Assembly: GCA_050015915.1 (NCBI GenBank)
Contig: JBEKAM010000001.1
Span: forward strand, 1 to 47,680
From: Solirubrobacteraceae bacterium
GTDB lineage: Bacteria > Actinomycetota > Thermoleophilia > Solirubrobacterales > Solirubrobacteraceae
Reading direction: 5' to 3'
DNA: 47,680 nt
A program made the translations under genes and the position numbers. Under the pieces are notes generated by a model that saw nothing but the letters and a program-made list of their open reading frames with translations, did not search any database and had not been told where the DNA came from. This document shows, in pieces, positions 8,743-17,010 of this stretch. Each line of letters opens with the position of its first letter. The first letter of the stretch is position 1.

Positions 8743-9198
8743 GTGCCGCATTCTCGCCGAAGAGTGACGCTCGCAGCTTGTGCGGTGGCCTGCGTCCCGG
8801 GGCTGTTCGCGACTCTCTTCGTCGCTACCCGCCCAGCGGCCGCCGCCAAGGCGCATAACGCGCGCATCCACTACGCGTGCAGCTCCCCAAATAGCGCGCA
8901 CGTGCCGTGCCACTTCTCGACGCCCAGCGGCAACATCCGCTGCCTGTGGACGCCCAGCCCGAACACGATCGTCTGCGAGCTGCTGGCAACCGGACGGGCC
9001 TACCGTCTGCGGCCGACCGGCAAGGCGAAGGCGGTCGTCGTACACCTCGCGCGCCGCGGCGAAACGCTTCCTCATAGCCAGCAGCTTGTGTTCCCGGAGA
9101 GCCTCTCCTGCCAGGACACGAACACAACGATGACCTGCAACCAGGACGAAGGCTTTGGTGAATTCAAGCTCGCCCCCAAAGGCTCACACAGCTCCTGA
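8743..9198 (+). CDS. Secreted cysteine-rich protein
   Basis: Signal-peptide-like N-terminus; FSTPSGNIRC...C...C...C disulfide-type pattern; start uncertain (8695-8743). Confidence 0.65.
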   Translation: MPHSRRRVTLAACAVACVPGLFATLFVATRPAAAAKAHNARIHYACSSPNSAHVPCHFSTPSGNIRCLWTPSPNTIVCELLATGRAYRLRPTGKAKAVVVHLARRGETLPHSQQLVFPESLSCQDTNTTMTCNQDEGFGEFKLAPKGSHSS

Positions 9199-9268
9199 GA
9201 AGACAACGTAGAGCCACTCGGACGGAGATCTGTGGCGCGGGCGCCGATCATGGCACGAGGCCCCTCGC

Positions 9269-9577
9269 CTAGACGGGGAACCTCCTCGTGTTGCGGTCCA
9301 TCTTGGCATTGGCCGCATCGATCGGATCGATGCCAGCCACATCGCACAGGCGCACCAGGTAGATGAGAATGTCTGCGACCTCTTCTTCAAGTCCGCCCAT
9401 GTACTCCGCCAGATCCTCATCGGCAGTCGCCCACTGAAGGACGGCGACCAGCTCCCCCGCCTCGCCGGCAATCGCAGCTGTGAGGTTCTTTGGCGTGTGG
9501 AAGCGCTCCCACGAGCGTTCGCGTGCGAAGACCCTGAGGCGTGCTCTCAGTGCGTCGAGTGAGTCGCTCTCAGTCAT
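9269..9577 (-). CDS. MazG-like nucleotide pyrophosphohydrolase (dCTP pyrophosphatase-like)
   Basis: FARERSWERFHTPKNL, EAGEL, EEVADILIYL, KMDRNTRRFP; ATG overlaps the stop of the upstream HNH gene. Confidence 0.92.
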   Translation of the reverse strand: MTESDSLDALRARLRVFARERSWERFHTPKNLTAAIAGEAGELVAVLQWATADEDLAEYMGGLEEEVADILIYLVRLCDVAGIDPIDAANAKMDRNTRRFPV

Positions 9578-10524
9578 TGAGCGGCCTTGGCCCGGTGCCA
9601 CGCGAAGTACTGGGCGCTCGAGGTGCTGTACGCCTTGCAGGTCCTGCCGGCCAATCGTCCGACCGCGTGCGCGACGGCGGTTGTGGCGTTCGTCGTCGCG
9701 CGATCGGTCGCGCGAATCGACCCCGCAGTGTCGACGTAGATGTACCCGAGCTCAAACAGATGATCGCATCCCAGGGTGCACGCGGGCATGATGTTGGCTT
9801 CGTCCCGGCGCTCGTGCTCGCTGCATTCGCAGCGCTGCTTGATGTGCGCCGTGCGCAGACAGTCGACCGGTACCGTGTTGCCGCAGAGGGAGCAATCGCC
9901 CGTCGTGGCATTCCCGAAGAGTTTCGCGCGTAGTTTGCGCTGCTCGCGTCGCACACTGGTGAGCACTGTCGCGTCGAGCTCTCCTCCGAGGACCAGAAAG
10001 CCCGGGTCCTCGCTCTCCCCGGCTCTCAGCGCATCGAGCGTAGATAGGAGTGGCGCTCCTTCGAGCACAGGTACTGGAAGTCCTCCGATGTTGGCGGAGT
10101 AGTGCATCGCGTCCATTCCGGCTATTGCGATCCGCTCCGCGGTGATCCCGGTGAGCTGCTCGACCCCTTCGATGCCGAACCGGTGCGGATAGCTCTCATC
10201 CGGCCGGTTTGGCGGCGCCGGCCAAAGTCTGCTCGTGTCGTAGAAGTAGGGGCTGGTGACCCGCCACAGAAACCCTTCTTGGAGGGTCTCACCGGCCCAG
10301 CCGCCACGCTTGACGCGTGGCTGGGGGCCGCCACTGGCGGCTAGAACCTGGTCACCAACCTCGAGTTCCCGCAGTACCTCCAGACCGGTGCGGGATGGCT
10401 CAAGCTGGCTGAGCTGGCGTGTGACTGCTTCCTCTGTCAGACCCCAGCGACCCTCAGCGAGACCAATATCGAGGTTCCCCCGAGCTGCGCGCGAGAGGTA
10501 GAGCGCATAAAGGGTGCTTGGCAT
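9574..10524 (-). CDS. EVE/PUA-like domain plus HNH endonuclease (putative modification-dependent nuclease)
   Basis: N-terminus: GRWG...LEVGDQVL...RVTSPYFYDTSRLWP...ESYPHRF; C-terminus: CSLCG...AHIK...NIMPACTLGCDHLFELG; GAGGAG RBS. Confidence 0.8.
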   Translation of the reverse strand: MPSTLYALYLSRAARGNLDIGLAEGRWGLTEEAVTRQLSQLEPSRTGLEVLRELEVGDQVLAASGGPQPRVKRGGWAGETLQEGFLWRVTSPYFYDTSRLWPAPPNRPDESYPHRFGIEGVEQLTGITAERIAIAGMDAMHYSANIGGLPVPVLEGAPLLSTLDALRAGESEDPGFLVLGGELDATVLTSVRREQRKLRAKLFGNATTGDCSLCGNTVPVDCLRTAHIKQRCECSEHERRDEANIMPACTLGCDHLFELGYIYVDTAGSIRATDRATTNATTAVAHAVGRLAGRTCKAYSTSSAQYFAWHRAKAAQ

Positions 10525-10614
10525 GTCGTTGCTCCTCGTTCGGAGGTGACTTGGTATCGGTTGCCGCGGCTAACGGGATCCGACGCCGTAAGCGTATTCG
10601 CTCGCCCGGTCTGC

Positions 10615-12111
10615 TCAGACAGCCATCGCGACGTACTTGGTCTCCAGGTACTCGCCGATACCCTCGAAGCCGCCCTCGCGACCAAAGCCTGACTGCTTGA
10701 CGCCGCCGAACGGCGCGGCGGGATTGGAGACGACGCCCTGGTTGAGGCCGATCATGCCCGACTCGATGCCCTCGCACACGCGAAACGCGCGGGAGAGGTC
10801 TTGGGTGTAGACGTAGGCGACGAGCCCGTACTCGGTGCGGTTGGCCGCTGCCAGCGCCTGCTCCTCGGAGCTGAACGTGGCGATGGGGGCGACGGGCCCG
10901 AAGATCTCCTCGCTGAGCAGCCGTGCGTCGTCGGGCACGTCGGTGAGAACGGTTGGCTCGAAGAAGTAGCCGGGGTAGCCGGACCCCGACAGGGCGCTAC
11001 CGCCGATCAGTGCGTGCGCACCGCGCTGCGTGGCGTCATTGACGAGCTCTGAGACCTTTTCGCGCTGGGCTTCGTCGATCAGCGGACCGACGTCGACATC
11101 GGGCTGGGTGCCGCGACCGACCTTCAGCGCACCCATCTTCTCGGACAGCCGCCGCGCGAACGCAGCAGCTACGGCCTCGTGCACGTGGAAGCGGTTGGCG
11201 GCGGTGCACGCCTCGCCGACGTTGCGCATCTTGGCGAGCATCGCGCCTTCCACGGCAGCGTCGAGGTCGGCGTCCTCGAACACGAGGAACGGAGCGTTGC
11301 CACCCAGCTCCATGGATACGCGGAGGATCTGCTGCGCGGACTGTTCGATCAGCGAGCGCCCAACCTCGGTGGAGCCGGTGAAGGACAGCTTGCGCGTGCG
11401 CTCGTCCTTCAGCAGCGGTCCGATGACATCGCCAGCGCGCTTGGCGCTGATGACGTTGAGCACGCCGTCGGGCAAGCCCGCTTCCTGGAGGATCTTGGCG
11501 AGCGCGAACATCGACAGGGGCGTCTGCTTGGCGGGCTTTACGACCATCGTGCAGCCGGCTGCGATCGCGGGGGCGATCTTGCGGGTACCCATGGCGGTGG
11601 GGAAGTTCCATGGCGTGACGAACACGCACGGGCCCACCGGCTGGCGCATGGTGAGGATGCGGCCTTTGCCTGTGGTGTTGACCATGTAGCGGCCGTGTAT
11701 GCGAACGGCCTCCTCGGAGAACCAGCGGAAGAACTCAGCCGCGTAGGAGATCTCCGCGCGCGACTCGGCGACTGACTTGCCCATCTCGAGGGTCATCAGC
11801 AGCGCGAGGTCGTCGGTTTTCTCCACGATCGCCTCATACGCGCGGCGCAGGATCTCGCCACGCTCGCGTGGCGGATGGACGGCCCACTGCGCCTGCGCGT
11901 CGGCTGCCGCCGCGAGCGCAGCCAACGCATCCTGCGCCTGAGCGTCGGCGACCTCAACGAGCGGCTCGGTGGTCGCTGGATCCTCGACCGCGAGGGTGCC
12001 GCCGCCGCTGGCAGCGCGCCACTGACCGGCGATGAACAGGTCGGTGGGAACCCAGTCGAGCACATCGCGCTCGCGCTGGGAAAGGGTGGATGTGCCAGCA
12101 GCGCTCACCAT
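10615..12111 (-). CDS. gabD: NAD(P)-dependent succinate-semialdehyde dehydrogenase
   Basis: TPWNFP, FTGST, ELGGNAP, NVGEAC, EEIFGP, PFGGVKQSGFGREG; start may be GTG 12108. Confidence 0.9.
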   Translation of the reverse strand: MVSAAGTSTLSQRERDVLDWVPTDLFIAGQWRAASGGGTLAVEDPATTEPLVEVADAQAQDALAALAAAADAQAQWAVHPPRERGEILRRAYEAIVEKTDDLALLMTLEMGKSVAESRAEISYAAEFFRWFSEEAVRIHGRYMVNTTGKGRILTMRQPVGPCVFVTPWNFPTAMGTRKIAPAIAAGCTMVVKPAKQTPLSMFALAKILQEAGLPDGVLNVISAKRAGDVIGPLLKDERTRKLSFTGSTEVGRSLIEQSAQQILRVSMELGGNAPFLVFEDADLDAAVEGAMLAKMRNVGEACTAANRFHVHEAVAAAFARRLSEKMGALKVGRGTQPDVDVGPLIDEAQREKVSELVNDATQRGAHALIGGSALSGSGYPGYFFEPTVLTDVPDDARLLSEEIFGPVAPIATFSSEEQALAAANRTEYGLVAYVYTQDLSRAFRVCEGIESGMIGLNQGVVSNPAAPFGGVKQSGFGREGGFEGIGEYLETKYVAMAV

Positions 12112-14860: not shown

Positions 14861-15935
14861 ACTTCACCGTGATTACGTCCCCATCGTTCATCACGTAATC
14901 GCGACCCTCCAGCCGCAGCGTGCCGCGTTCGCGCGCGCCTGCATAGCCGCCCGCATCGACCAGCTCTTTCCAGCCGATCACCTCAGCGCGCACGAAGCCC
15001 TTCTGGATGTCCGAGTGGATCTCGCCGGCGGCGTGCCACGCGGTGAGACCGCGGCGCAGGTGCCACGACTGCGCAATCGTCGCCTCGCCCGCAGTGAAGA
15101 ACGAAATCAGCTCGAGCAGCGCAAACGCCTCACGCACCACGCGCTGCAGGCCAGACTCGCTGACGCCTAGCTCCTCGCGCATCGCCGCTGCGTCCTCGTC
15201 GTCGAGCTCCGCCAGCTCCGACTCGATCCGTGAGGACACGGCCACAGCACGCGCGCCCTGCGCGGCCGCGTGCTCGGCCACCGCCGCCGGCACCTCATCT
15301 GAGCCCTCATCCACGTTCGCCACGAACAGCACCGGCTTGCTCGTCAACGAGCCCAGGTCACGCGCGGCGTTGGGTGCGTCATCAGGCACCGGCACGGTGC
15401 GCGCTGGACGACCTTCCTGCAAAGCCGCGATCACCTCGCGTAGCCACGCCTCCTCCGCGACAGCAACACGATCGCCCCCCCGCGCCTGTTTGCCGACTTT
15501 GTCCACGCGGCGTTCAGCAGCGTCGAGGTCCGCCATCACCAACTCCGTCTCAATCGTCTCAATATCGGCCAGCGGGTCCACGCGACCCTCCGGGTGGATC
15601 ACGTTTTCGTCGTTATGCGCCCGCACCACATGCACGATCGCGTGGGTCTCGCGGATGTTCGCCAGGAATTTGTTGCCCAGCCCCTCCCCCTCGTGCGCCC
15701 CCGCCACGAGGCCCGCGATGTCGTGGAAGTCGACCGTGTCCCACACGATCTCCGACGCGCCAACCGTCTTTGCCACCTCCTCCATGCGCTCGTCGCGCAC
15801 CGGCACAACCGCCACGTTCGGCTCGATCGTCGTGAACGGGTAGTTCGCCGCCTCCGCCCCCGCTTTCGTCAGCGCGTTGAACAGCGACGACTTGCCCGCG
15901 TTGGGCATCCCCACGATTCCTATGCGCGTGCTCAC
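14850..15935 (-). CDS. ychF: Redox-regulated ribosome-binding ATPase YchF
   Basis: GMPNAGKS, ANYPFTTIEPN, DIAGLV, GLGNKFL, FFTAG, AGEIHSD. Confidence 0.96.
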   Translation of the reverse strand: MSTRIGIVGMPNAGKSSLFNALTKAGAEAANYPFTTIEPNVAVVPVRDERMEEVAKTVGASEIVWDTVDFHDIAGLVAGAHEGEGLGNKFLANIRETHAIVHVVRAHNDENVIHPEGRVDPLADIETIETELVMADLDAAERRVDKVGKQARGGDRVAVAEEAWLREVIAALQEGRPARTVPVPDDAPNAARDLGSLTSKPVLFVANVDEGSDEVPAAVAEHAAAQGARAVAVSSRIESELAELDDEDAAAMREELGVSESGLQRVVREAFALLELISFFTAGEATIAQSWHLRRGLTAWHAAGEIHSDIQKGFVRAEVIGWKELVDAGGYAGARERGTLRLEGRDYVMNDGDVITVKFTP

Positions 15936-16438
15936 CGTTCCGCCTCCATTTCGAGAATGCCCTCCTCAGCCAGCCATGTGGCACAGCGGTCTACATAGCG
16001 ATCGAGCTCGGCCAGGAGGATCTGCACACTCTCGCGCAAAGCCTTCCAACCCGCTGGCGGATAGGCATGCGCCAGATCGTCGCGCAACTCCTTCGCCTCC
16101 TGCAGGCGTGTTGCCGAACGCTGCGAGATTACCTCCAACGCGGCAAGTCGCTCCCAGGGATGGCCGGCTTCCTTCTCAAGCACACCGAGGCGCTGCCCCT
16201 CTGCGAGTGCCCGCGCGGCAAGCTCGTGCAGCCAGTTCAAAAGCACCTCGTACTCGCGCTCGACCACAGCTACCTTGTTGCGCTCTCGCGCGTCCGGTGA
16301 GCTCGCCGCACGAAGAAAAGCATCGAGATCGAACTCCGGGTCGAACTCTTCCACGGCGACTAGCAGTTGCTCGCGCGCACGAGGAATGGACTCGAAGATC
16401 GTGTTCAGCCGTCGCTGTCCCTTTGACAGTGCAGGCAT
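15932..16438 (-). CDS. HEPN (HepT-like) ribonuclease toxin
   Basis: Helical protein with the RDDLAHAY (RX4HXY) motif, directly downstream of an MNT gene. Confidence 0.72.
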   Translation of the reverse strand: MPALSKGQRRLNTIFESIPRAREQLLVAVEEFDPEFDLDAFLRAASSPDARERNKVAVVEREYEVLLNWLHELAARALAEGQRLGVLEKEAGHPWERLAALEVISQRSATRLQEAKELRDDLAHAYPPAGWKALRESVQILLAELDRYVDRCATWLAEEGILEMEAER

Positions 16439-16440
16439 GA

Positions 16441-17010
16441 CTAGGCGGCTGCCGCGATCCGCTCCCGTGCGGCCACAACCGTCTCGTGCGCGCGCTGCGC
16501 AACCTCGCGCTCTTCGCGATCGGCAGCCGCGAATATCTCGCGCCGACGCTTTTGCAACCCGTCCCACAATCCGCCTCGATCGACCAGCACCCGGCCCTCG
16601 CGCAGGATGTCAGCCAATAGCGTTGGCATCGTCTCCGCCTGTTCGAGGTCGACTACATCCACCGGACGTCCAAGCGCGCGTCGCAGGCGCATCTGCAGCC
16701 TGGCCAGAGAGCGCGGCCCCTCCCCGTCATGCACGACGAGGAGATCGACATCGGAGGAATCCTGATCCTCGCCGGTCGCGATCGACCCGAACAACACCAC
16801 CATGCGAGCTGCTCGCTCAGTGCGCAGCGCCGTCCTGAGCTTGCTGAGTAGCTCCCAGTGAGCAGCCAGATACTCCTCCTCCTCGCATGACAGCTCCAGC
16901 CGGCGCCGTGCTACCCGACGACCACGCAACAAGCCGTCGTTTACGCAGCGCCGCAGCGTGCGCTCACTACAACCAACCTTCTCTGCCGACAGCGACAGGG
17001 CTTGACTCAT
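16441..17010 (-). CDS. Minimal nucleotidyltransferase (MntA-like antitoxin) with an N-terminal HTH
   Basis: LFGSIATGEDQDSSDVDLLV and RPVDVV; N-terminal SAEKVGCSERTLRRCVNDGLL is HTH-like. Confidence 0.85.
   Translation of the reverse strand: MSQALSLSAEKVGCSERTLRRCVNDGLLRGRRVARRRLELSCEEEEYLAAHWELLSKLRTALRTERAARMVVLFGSIATGEDQDSSDVDLLVVHDGEGPRSLARLQMRLRRALGRPVDVVDLEQAETMPTLLADILREGRVLVDRGGLWDGLQKRRREIFAAADREEREVAQRAHETVVAARERIAAAA

What the first reader, a model, noticed from the sequence alone, without database searches (positions are those of the whole stretch)
9269..10524. Coupled EVE/PUA-like-HNH nuclease plus MazG-like dCTP pyrophosphatase: candidate defence system against modified DNA
Seen: a two-gene cassette with an ATGA stop/start overlap sits among unrelated genes just after gabD. 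Gene 1 has an aromatic-rich N-domain (GRWG, GDQVL, PYFYD..LWP, YPHRF) and a zinc-ribbon HNH. Gene 2 has all-alpha NTP-PPase motifs of the DCTPP1/MazG-like type. Known: EVE-HNH fusions cut 5mC/5hmC DNA, and DCTPP1-type enzymes hydrolyse dCTP and 5-modified dCTP. Inference: the nuclease cuts modified phage DNA while the pyrophosphatase destroys modified dCTP. That would starve the phage or keep modified bases out of host DNA. No methyltransferase is adjacent, consistent with type IV logic.
Basis: partly seen in the sequence, partly recalled or inferred. Interest (0 to 1): 0.78.

Follow-up and report, generated by a model that had tools for sequence, protein, structure and literature searches.

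The report
Modified-DNA nuclease with nucleotide-cleaning partner
Two overlapping genes encode a DNA-cutting enzyme with a pocket predicted to read methylated bases, more likely methyl-adenine than the methyl-cytosine first proposed, and a small enzyme that likely destroys modified DNA building blocks; the same pairing recurs in prophages of several distant bacteria and is probably an undescribed variant of anti-phage restriction.

Summary
Observation confirmed; interpretation partly supported. Gene 1 (9574-10524, -) is a PUA-superfamily (EVE/YTH-like) reader fused to an intact zinc-bound HNH nuclease. Gene 2 (9269-9577, -) is DCTPP1-like. They overlap by ATGA. The pair is real but optional: adjacent in 7 of 8 loci of close relatives, 2 of 6 of a second clade in the genus, 0 of 22 actinomycete homologues. 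The same reader family and gene order recur in Enterobacter prophages and a Vibrio phage, among defence genes. Main correction: the nearest characterised relative is most likely ScoA3V (SCO5330; 36% identity over full length), a 6mA-stimulated nickase, not VcaM4I. The pocket maps onto the YTH m6A cage, and gene 2 lacks DCTPP1's His38, so the cytosine reading is not established. Best model: modification-dependent restriction plus a dNTP sanitiser that likely limits self-cutting. Precedent: SauUSI plus Nudix. This scan has reported MazG-like plus EVE-nuclease pairs before, on other DNA. New variant of a known kind; no activity was tested.

The parts
9574..10524 (-). Gene 1, 316 aa: PUA-superfamily reader fused to a zinc-bound HNH nuclease, ScoA3V-like
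10057..10524 (-). N-terminal EVE/YTH-like domain (about residues 1-156); predicted base pocket N17, W27, W101, Y112
9577..9984 (-). HNH domain (about residues 181-316): H227, N244, D254, E258; four-cysteine zinc site C211, C214, C249, C253
9269..9577 (-). Gene 2, 102 aa: DCTPP1/RS21-C6-like all-alpha NTP pyrophosphatase; W23, H27, W49, E39, E42, E66, D69, Y73 kept; Leu14 at the His38 position
9574..9577 (-). ATGA stop/start overlap (translational coupling inferred)
10532..10537 (-). GAGGAG ribosome-binding-site-like hexamer 7 nt before gene 1
   Evidence: sequence only

Best explanation
This is likely a mobile two-gene restriction cassette in which a reader-HNH nuclease of the ScoA3V group is predicted to cut densely base-modified foreign DNA, more likely through N6-methyladenine-type marks than 5mC/5hmC, while an optional DCTPP1-like pyrophosphatase likely destroys the matching modified dNTPs. 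Shown: the two folds, intact catalytic residues, the overlap, patchy distribution, recurrence of the pair and defence context of relatives. Inferred: (1) the N-domain flips a modified base into the N17/W27/W101/Y112 pocket and so releases the HNH dimer, as in VcaM4I; (2) base read: 6mA or another amino-methylated base about 50%, 5mC/5hmC about 30%, a hypermodified base about 20%; (3) gene 2 hydrolyses modified dNTPs arising from salvage of cut or turned-over methylated DNA, which keeps them from entering host DNA at random sites where the nuclease would cut, and may also deny them to phages that modify at the nucleotide level; (4) the nuclease works without the partner, which lowers its cost.
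For: Fold: model pLDDT 90; best matches VcaM4I (Foldseek E 4e-8; Z 12.7, rmsd 13.8, 246 aligned), EVE PH1033 (Z 11.4, rmsd 3.5, 127 aligned), TagI HNH (Z 9.0, rmsd 2.7, 91 aligned) and YTH domains (Z 8.2-8.7). H227/N244/D254/E258 align with VcaM4I H224/N241/D250/D254. P0235 is from S. coelicolor A3(2), 300 aa; SCO5330 is 903 bp, i.e. 300 aa, and converges on the 1200-aa methylase SCO5331, as homologue L010 converges on a PglX; P0001 is 36% identical to it, E 3e-61, N-domain alone 32%. ScoA3V was reported as a 6mA-stimulated nickase (PMC6765204). W27/W101/Y112 align with MJECL36 W25/F79/F90, which superpose on the YTHDC1 m6A cage (PMC6112328); N17 lies ten residues before W27, as N367 before W377. 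These four residues are in 62, 68, 67 and 57 of 68 aligned homologues. Pairing: genus nuclease 10 of 301 genomes, DCTPP1-like 12 of 301, adjacent in 5, 0.4 expected; 45 of 69 viral loci with a DCTPP1-like gene (7 of 27 clusters at 70%) have an HNH neighbour. Contexts: lysis-terminase gap, P2-type replication-portal gap, between PDC-M62 and Gabija, beside PglX, PglW and type IV enzymes.
Against: No activity was measured. The partner is absent in 0 of 22 actinomycete loci, 4 of 6 loci of the second genus clade and 1 of 8 close loci. Deleting the Nudix gene beside SauUSI did not affect plasmid restriction (PMC3312211). DCTPP1-like genes also sit beside N6/N4 methylases (7 of 69 viral loci), Schlafen-group-3 helicases and nucleotide kinases, so they are not specific to this nuclease. 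MJECL36, the closest pocket, did not bind m6A. ScoA3V data come from partly purified enzyme and its in vivo test was inconclusive. The host genome encodes two C5 and several N6/N4 methyltransferases, a possible self-conflict under either base. The window's own neighbourhood holds no other defence gene among those scanned next to it. His38 is missing in all 88 prokaryotic and viral homologues aligned (three rows have no residue there), so its loss does not mark this pair out.
Confidence: 0.6

Rival explanations
1. One reading: the nuclease reads 5mC/5hmC and the partner hydrolyses 5-methyl- or 5-hydroxymethyl-dCTP, giving two layers against cytosine-modified phages.
For: VcaM4I is the top whole-protein fold match. 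Gene 2 keeps DCTPP1's Trp47, His51, Trp73, Asp98 and Tyr102 equivalents. ScoA3V is tabulated as '6mA > A, 5mC'. An Asn could read cytosine N3 as well as adenine N1 (inference).
Against: Profiles match VcaM4I only over the HNH domain. The ScoA3V group was reported as a separate clade with 6mA-stimulated activity. His38 is absent. Removing modified dCTP would tend to leave phage DNA unmodified and so unseen by the nuclease (inference).
Confidence: 0.25
2. The nuclease is a stand-alone type IV enzyme and the pyrophosphatase is unlinked defence-island cargo that travels with it without a shared function.
For: 0 of 22 actinomycete loci carry it; the gene has many other neighbours; the SauUSI Nudix was dispensable in a plasmid assay.
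Against: Tight overlaps in both gene orders and with several unrelated nuclease clades; one pyrophosphatase clade (SH-aLRT 92, quick tree) partners two nuclease clades only 25-35% alike; 5 adjacent pairs against 0.4 expected (kin are not independent).
Confidence: 0.2
3. The pyrophosphatase is itself the anti-phage effector that drains canonical dCTP or dATP on infection, with the reader-nuclease as sensor or partner, akin to PUA-Cal-HAD.
For: PUA-like domains sense m6-dAMP and trigger dNTP depletion in PUA-Cal-HAD, and a rare form has a MazG-like domain in place of the calcineurin domain (bioRxiv 10.64898/2026.01.15.699771).
Against: Gene 2 is a bare 102-aa enzyme with no regulatory domain; that system needs a HAD gene, not seen here; its PUA motifs (VWWGWW, TPxYY) differ from this family; the nuclease mostly occurs alone.
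Confidence: 0.08

Closest known systems
ScoA3V (SCO5330) of Streptomyces coelicolor, PUA-like-HNH nickase stimulated by 6mA (Lutz et al. 2019, PMC6765204)
   Same: 36% identity over full length to the protein identified here as SCO5330; same pocket residues N/W/W/Y and same HNH and zinc residues
   Different: ScoA3V's neighbours are a PglX-like methylase and an island, with no pyrophosphatase reported or seen in its close relatives; the window gene is coupled to one and lies in another class of Actinomycetota
VcaM4I / TspA15I EVE-HNH type IV restriction enzymes (PMC7897488)
   Same: Reader-linker-HNH architecture; catalytic H, N, D, acidic residue at matching positions; no cognate methylase
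   Different: Reader 12-15% identical in structural alignment and not matched by sequence profile; this HNH has a four-cysteine zinc site; pocket resembles PH1033/MJECL36 and YTH
SauUSI plus linked MutT/Nudix pyrophosphohydrolase (PMC3141236, PMC3312211)
   Same: Type IV nuclease with a conserved adjacent nucleotide pyrophosphatase (at least 60 linked cases reported), function open
   Different: Different nuclease (PLD-helicase) and different pyrophosphatase fold (Nudix, not all-alpha MazG type)
DCTPP1 / RS21-C6 and PDB 4qgp all-alpha dCTP pyrophosphatases
   Same: E 1e-17 to 3e-23; tryptophan sandwich, His51 and acidic residues kept
   Different: His38 replaced by Leu, Tyr129 by Phe; bacterial, accessory and nuclease-linked
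PUA-Cal-HAD (bioRxiv 10.64898/2026.01.15.699771)
   Same: PUA-like reader of a methylated adenine linked to nucleotide-degrading enzymes
   Different: Reader fused to calcineurin and senses a free nucleotide; needs HAD; abortive infection; different PUA motifs

Membership tests
PUA-superfamily-HNH type IV restriction enzymes | N-terminal PUA-superfamily fold | tested here: met
   EVE 1wmm Z 11.4 (rmsd 3.5, 127 aligned), 2p5d E 1e-6, YTH Z 8.2-8.7; Atlas EVE cluster TM 0.62
PUA-superfamily-HNH type IV restriction enzymes | C-terminal HNH with intact catalytic residues | tested here: met
   H227, N244, D254, E258 invariant in 47 of 47; profile hit to VcaM4I HNH E 2.5e-6 and 3e-9
PUA-superfamily-HNH type IV restriction enzymes | No cognate methyltransferase adjacent | tested here: met
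   none among the neighbouring ORFs scanned; methylases exist on other contigs
PUA-superfamily-HNH type IV restriction enzymes | Modification-dependent cleavage or phage restriction | not testable with these tools
   needs biochemistry
VcaM4I/TspA15I group (5mC/5hmC) | Reader domain groups by sequence with VcaM4I EVE | tested here: not met
   two family profiles align to 6yex only over the HNH part
VcaM4I/TspA15I group (5mC/5hmC) | Pocket residues E15, P24, W82, Q128, Y130 | tested here: inconclusive
   fold tools gave no residue-level alignment to 6yex; an Asn stands in the first helix and Gly follows the conserved Trp
ScoA3V group | Full-length and reader-domain similarity to SCO5330 | tested here: met
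   36% full length, E 3e-61; N-domain 32%, E 3e-23 in a 68-sequence set; P0235 = SCO5330 inferred from organism, length and neighbour, not from a shared accession
ScoA3V group | 6mA-stimulated nicking | not testable with these tools
   needs biochemistry
DCTPP1/RS21-C6 dCTP pyrophosphatases | Trp47/Trp73 sandwich, His51, Asp98, Tyr102 and three glutamates | tested here: met
   W23, W49, H27, D69, Y73, E39, E42, E66 invariant in 50 of 50; metal role of the glutamates is recalled
DCTPP1/RS21-C6 dCTP pyrophosphatases | His38, second cytosine selectivity filter | tested here: not met
   Leu14 here; no His at this position in the 88 rows; 4qgp also has Leu
DCTPP1/RS21-C6 dCTP pyrophosphatases | Preference for dCTP and C5-modified dCTP | not testable with these tools
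   needs enzyme assay
Catalogued defence systems (PADLOC-DB 2.0.0) | Match of either gene to a system model | tested here: not met
   0 families at E up to 1 for both proteins; library dates from 2023; DefenseFinder was not available

The most novel reading that the evidence does not exclude
A widespread, undescribed two-gene defence module in which a YTH-type reader-HNH nuclease attacks adenine-methylated DNA and bacterial DCTPP1-like enzymes, lacking the His38 cytosine filter, are N6-methyl-dATP (or N4-methyl-dCTP) sanitisers that stop self-restriction. It would give bacterial DCTPP1 homologues a function, explain why type IV nucleases and phage amino-methylases carry nucleotide pyrophosphatases, and offer a candidate for the nuclease that cuts Pgl-methylated DNA in Streptomyces.
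Probability: 0.25. Interest if true: 0.72.

Novelty: new variant of a known kind. Interest (0 to 1): 0.52.

Why it matters
Type IV nucleases linked to nucleotide pyrophosphatases were noticed in 2011 (SauUSI-Nudix) and the partner's role is still open. This pair is small (1.25 kb), has a characterised relative, and occurs with and without the partner, so the question can be tested directly. Few DNA 6mA readers are known and YTH-HNH fusions were named as future work in 2024 (PMC11037411); a 6mA-directed member would add one and could serve as a reagent.

Tried and rejected
Pfam, PADLOC and NCBIfam give no curated hit for gene 1; only a sub-threshold PRK00809 match. A single-sequence fold of the Bacillus-type partner nuclease failed (pLDDT 35) and was not used; its N-domain is linked to ours only weakly (hhalign probability 43%, 34 columns; Atlas EVE 0.87), so 'PUA-like' for that clade is a lead only. 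The N-domain profile scores for the Enterobacter and second-clade proteins are circular, since two of each were in the alignment; the independent evidence is BLAST (E 1e-7 and 1e-6 for L090 and L087; 0.08 and 2.9 for L060 and L061) and shared motif residues. No promoter, terminator or meaningful repeat bounds the cassette. The Enterobacter pair had no DNA match in the E. coli collection. Two draws of 401 Streptomyces genomes did not hold the S. coelicolor island itself. An order-wide draw of 401 genomes found no further full-length copy. Single-protein scans of viral contigs with gene 2 and with P0235 found nothing. The careful tree did not finish; the quick tree is cited. The complex prediction was not run: the same pyrophosphatase partners unrelated nucleases, so binding is not claimed. 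Literature searches for the pair found no paper describing it.

Full report
Observation. The two ORFs, their ATGA overlap and all quoted motifs are present. The cassette is an insertion by several signs: GC3 0.74-0.75 against 0.80-0.86 in five flanking genes; the upstream aldehyde dehydrogenase gene is in 41 of 41 genus genomes searched but 12 of the 13 other loci fetched there carry other genes; a full-length close copy of gene 1 is in 4 of 301 genus genomes, counting our own. Named close relatives are Solirubrobacteraceae and Solirubrobacterales.

Gene 1. No Pfam or PADLOC family matches it, but 22 of 47 aligned homologues hit HNH_2 weakly. The model (pLDDT 90) matches VcaM4I first, then the EVE proteins PH1033 and MJECL36, TagI and YTH domains. 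H227, N244, D254 and E258 align with VcaM4I H224, N241, D250 and D254, and four cysteines are invariant.

Which reader. Family profiles match VcaM4I only over the HNH domain; the N-domain's best sequence matches are PH1033 and MJECL36 (E 0.06-0.15, weak but in line with the fold). In those alignments W27, W101 and Y112 fall on MJECL36 W25, F79 and F90, which a review superposes on the m6A cage of YTHDC1, while noting that MJECL36 does not bind m6A (PMC6112328). N17 has the spacing of YTHDC1 N367. Full-length homologues at 33-38% are in Streptomyces, Kitasatospora, Nocardiopsis and Micromonosporaceae, much the range reported for ScoA3V. One, P0235, is from S. coelicolor A3(2) and has 300 aa; SCO5330 has 903 bp and converges on the methylase SCO5331 (supplement of PMC10302056), as homologue L010 converges on PglX. 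I take P0235 to be ScoA3V (about 90%; no shared accession was seen). It is 36% identical to gene 1 and has the same four pocket residues. ScoA3V left Dam/Dcm plasmid mostly intact and degraded further-methylated DNA, and was judged 6mA-stimulated (PMC6765204). This shifts the likely ligand from 5mC/5hmC towards 6mA without settling it.

Gene 2. It belongs with DCTPP1/RS21-C6 and 4qgp rather than with other MazG types (E 1e-27 to 1e-34 against 1e-5 or weaker by profile). The tryptophan sandwich, His51, Asp98 and Tyr102 are kept; His38, which reads the cytosine carbonyl (PMC13291643), is Leu here and is not His in any of 88 rows aligned. His51 reads a ring nitrogen that cytosine N3 and adenine N1 both offer (inference), so the substrate is open.

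Is the pair conserved. Among loci with a long match of at least 50% identity, the pyrophosphatase follows directly in 7 of 8 (6 of 7 after merging the identical L004 and L028; L040, a 49-residue match, was left out). In a second clade in the genus (29-40% over partial matches) it follows in 2 of 6, and those two pyrophosphatases group with ours. In 22 actinomycete loci it is absent (two are short contigs), as in 7 of 7 loci with 1.5-kb flanks. In 301 genus genomes, 10 have the nuclease family, 12 a DCTPP1-like gene, and 5 have them adjacent, against 0.4 expected; kin are not independent. Indirectly, 16 of the top 50 nuclease homologues share a contig length with one of the top 66 pyrophosphatase homologues. 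Searching from the pyrophosphatase side, 45 of 69 viral loci have an HNH neighbour, which is 7 of 27 clusters at 70% identity; 22 of the 45 are one cluster, mostly Bacillus cereus-group prophages (neighbour labels set by me from those calls). Ten loci, from Enterobacter and Cedecea where named, have our gene order and our pocket residues, and three checked lie between lysis and terminase genes. A Vibrio temperate phage has the same pair between integrase and repressor, flanked by a type IV-like HNH and other defence-like genes. Three actinomycete plasmids carry the pyrophosphatase next to a more distant HNH.

Mechanism. Shown: folds, residues, linkage, context. Inferred: base flipping and release of an auto-inhibited HNH dimer as in VcaM4I; a target of dense rather than sparse modification, since the host has two C5 and several amino-methylases and enterobacterial hosts are normally Dam and Dcm positive (recalled); and a sanitising role for gene 2. 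I prefer self-protection to phage starvation because removing modified dNTPs would hide phage DNA from the nuclease, and because the partner is dispensable in many lineages and also follows phage methylases. Both roles may hold.

Known and new. The nuclease class is known and the nearest member has been assayed. A type IV nuclease with a linked pyrophosphatase is known from SauUSI. I found no paper on a DCTPP1-like gene paired with a PUA-HNH nuclease (searches; the word MazG does not occur in PMC6765204, PMC7641849, PMC12707154 or PMC12839542); the library lacks most subscription papers. This scan has noted MazG-like plus EVE-nuclease pairs four times on other DNA; those notes are unchecked leads, cite VcaM4I-type enzymes as closest, and the lines shown do not mention ScoA3V. 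What is added here is the ScoA3V/6mA placement, the His38 observation and the counts with and without partner.

What I saw of each paper. Passages only: PMC7897488, PMC6765204, PMC7641849, PMC4333417, PMC1934918, PMC3141236, PMC3312211, PMC13291643, PMC11037411, PMC12707154, PMC6112328, PMC12839542. Section 5 whole plus passages: bioRxiv 10.64898/2026.01.15.699771. Supplement rows: PMC10302056, PMC1934918. The supplement of PMC6765204 could not be read; it may hold ScoA3V alignments and neighbourhood tables that bear on the identity of P0235 and on whether the pairing was noticed. The bioRxiv supplement (its PUA alignment and neighbourhood table) was not seen and may cover this family.

Verdict. 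Real feature; new variant of modification-dependent restriction; interest 0.52.

Noticed in passing
L069, L070, L073 (same genus); L071: Other DCTPP1-like genes in the genus sit in operons with deoxynucleoside-kinase and adenylate-kinase-like genes (Pfam dNK in L073, ADK in L069 and L070; the rest by eye); possibly a modified-nucleotide pathway.
   Followed up: partly
L086, L092, L094, L098, L109, L112, L132: In 7 of 69 viral loci the DCTPP1-like gene directly follows an N6/N4 DNA methylase, a second hint of a link to amino-methylated bases.
   Followed up: partly
L093:412-7717: An HNH plus DCTPP1-like pair lies between a nicking replication gene and a portal gene, the position recalled as the defence hotspot of P2-like phages.
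   Followed up: partly
L010, L022, L013, L014; SCO5330-SCO5331: Partner-less actinomycete homologues lie beside PglX, PglW, DUF499/HmaC or a ScoMcrA-sized type IV gene; a 6mA-reading nuclease beside Pgl genes may bear on how Pgl restricts methylated phage (mechanism recalled).
   Followed up: partly
window 9198-10615 and L150-L162: The site just after the aldehyde dehydrogenase gene carries different genes in different genomes of the genus; L161 looks like the empty site.
   Followed up: yes
window 15932-17010 (-): Adjacent nucleotidyltransferase (Polbeta, E 2e-15) and HepT-like (sub-threshold, E 2e-4) genes, a likely HEPN-MNT toxin-antitoxin pair.
   Followed up: no
L031:5998-6939: The nuclease homologue has an in-frame stop at codon 140 while its pyrophosphatase partner is intact; pseudogene or assembly error.
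   Followed up: no
P0040; L048: P0040 (421 aa, 48% identical) carries an extra N-terminal PF26345 domain; L048 holds the nuclease inside a 741-aa open frame, possible fusions.
   Followed up: no
L077:3989-7178: Pyrophosphatase, HNH and a 618-aa Nhi/PDC-S41-like helicase form an overlapping three-gene run in a Pseudomonas locus.
   Followed up: no
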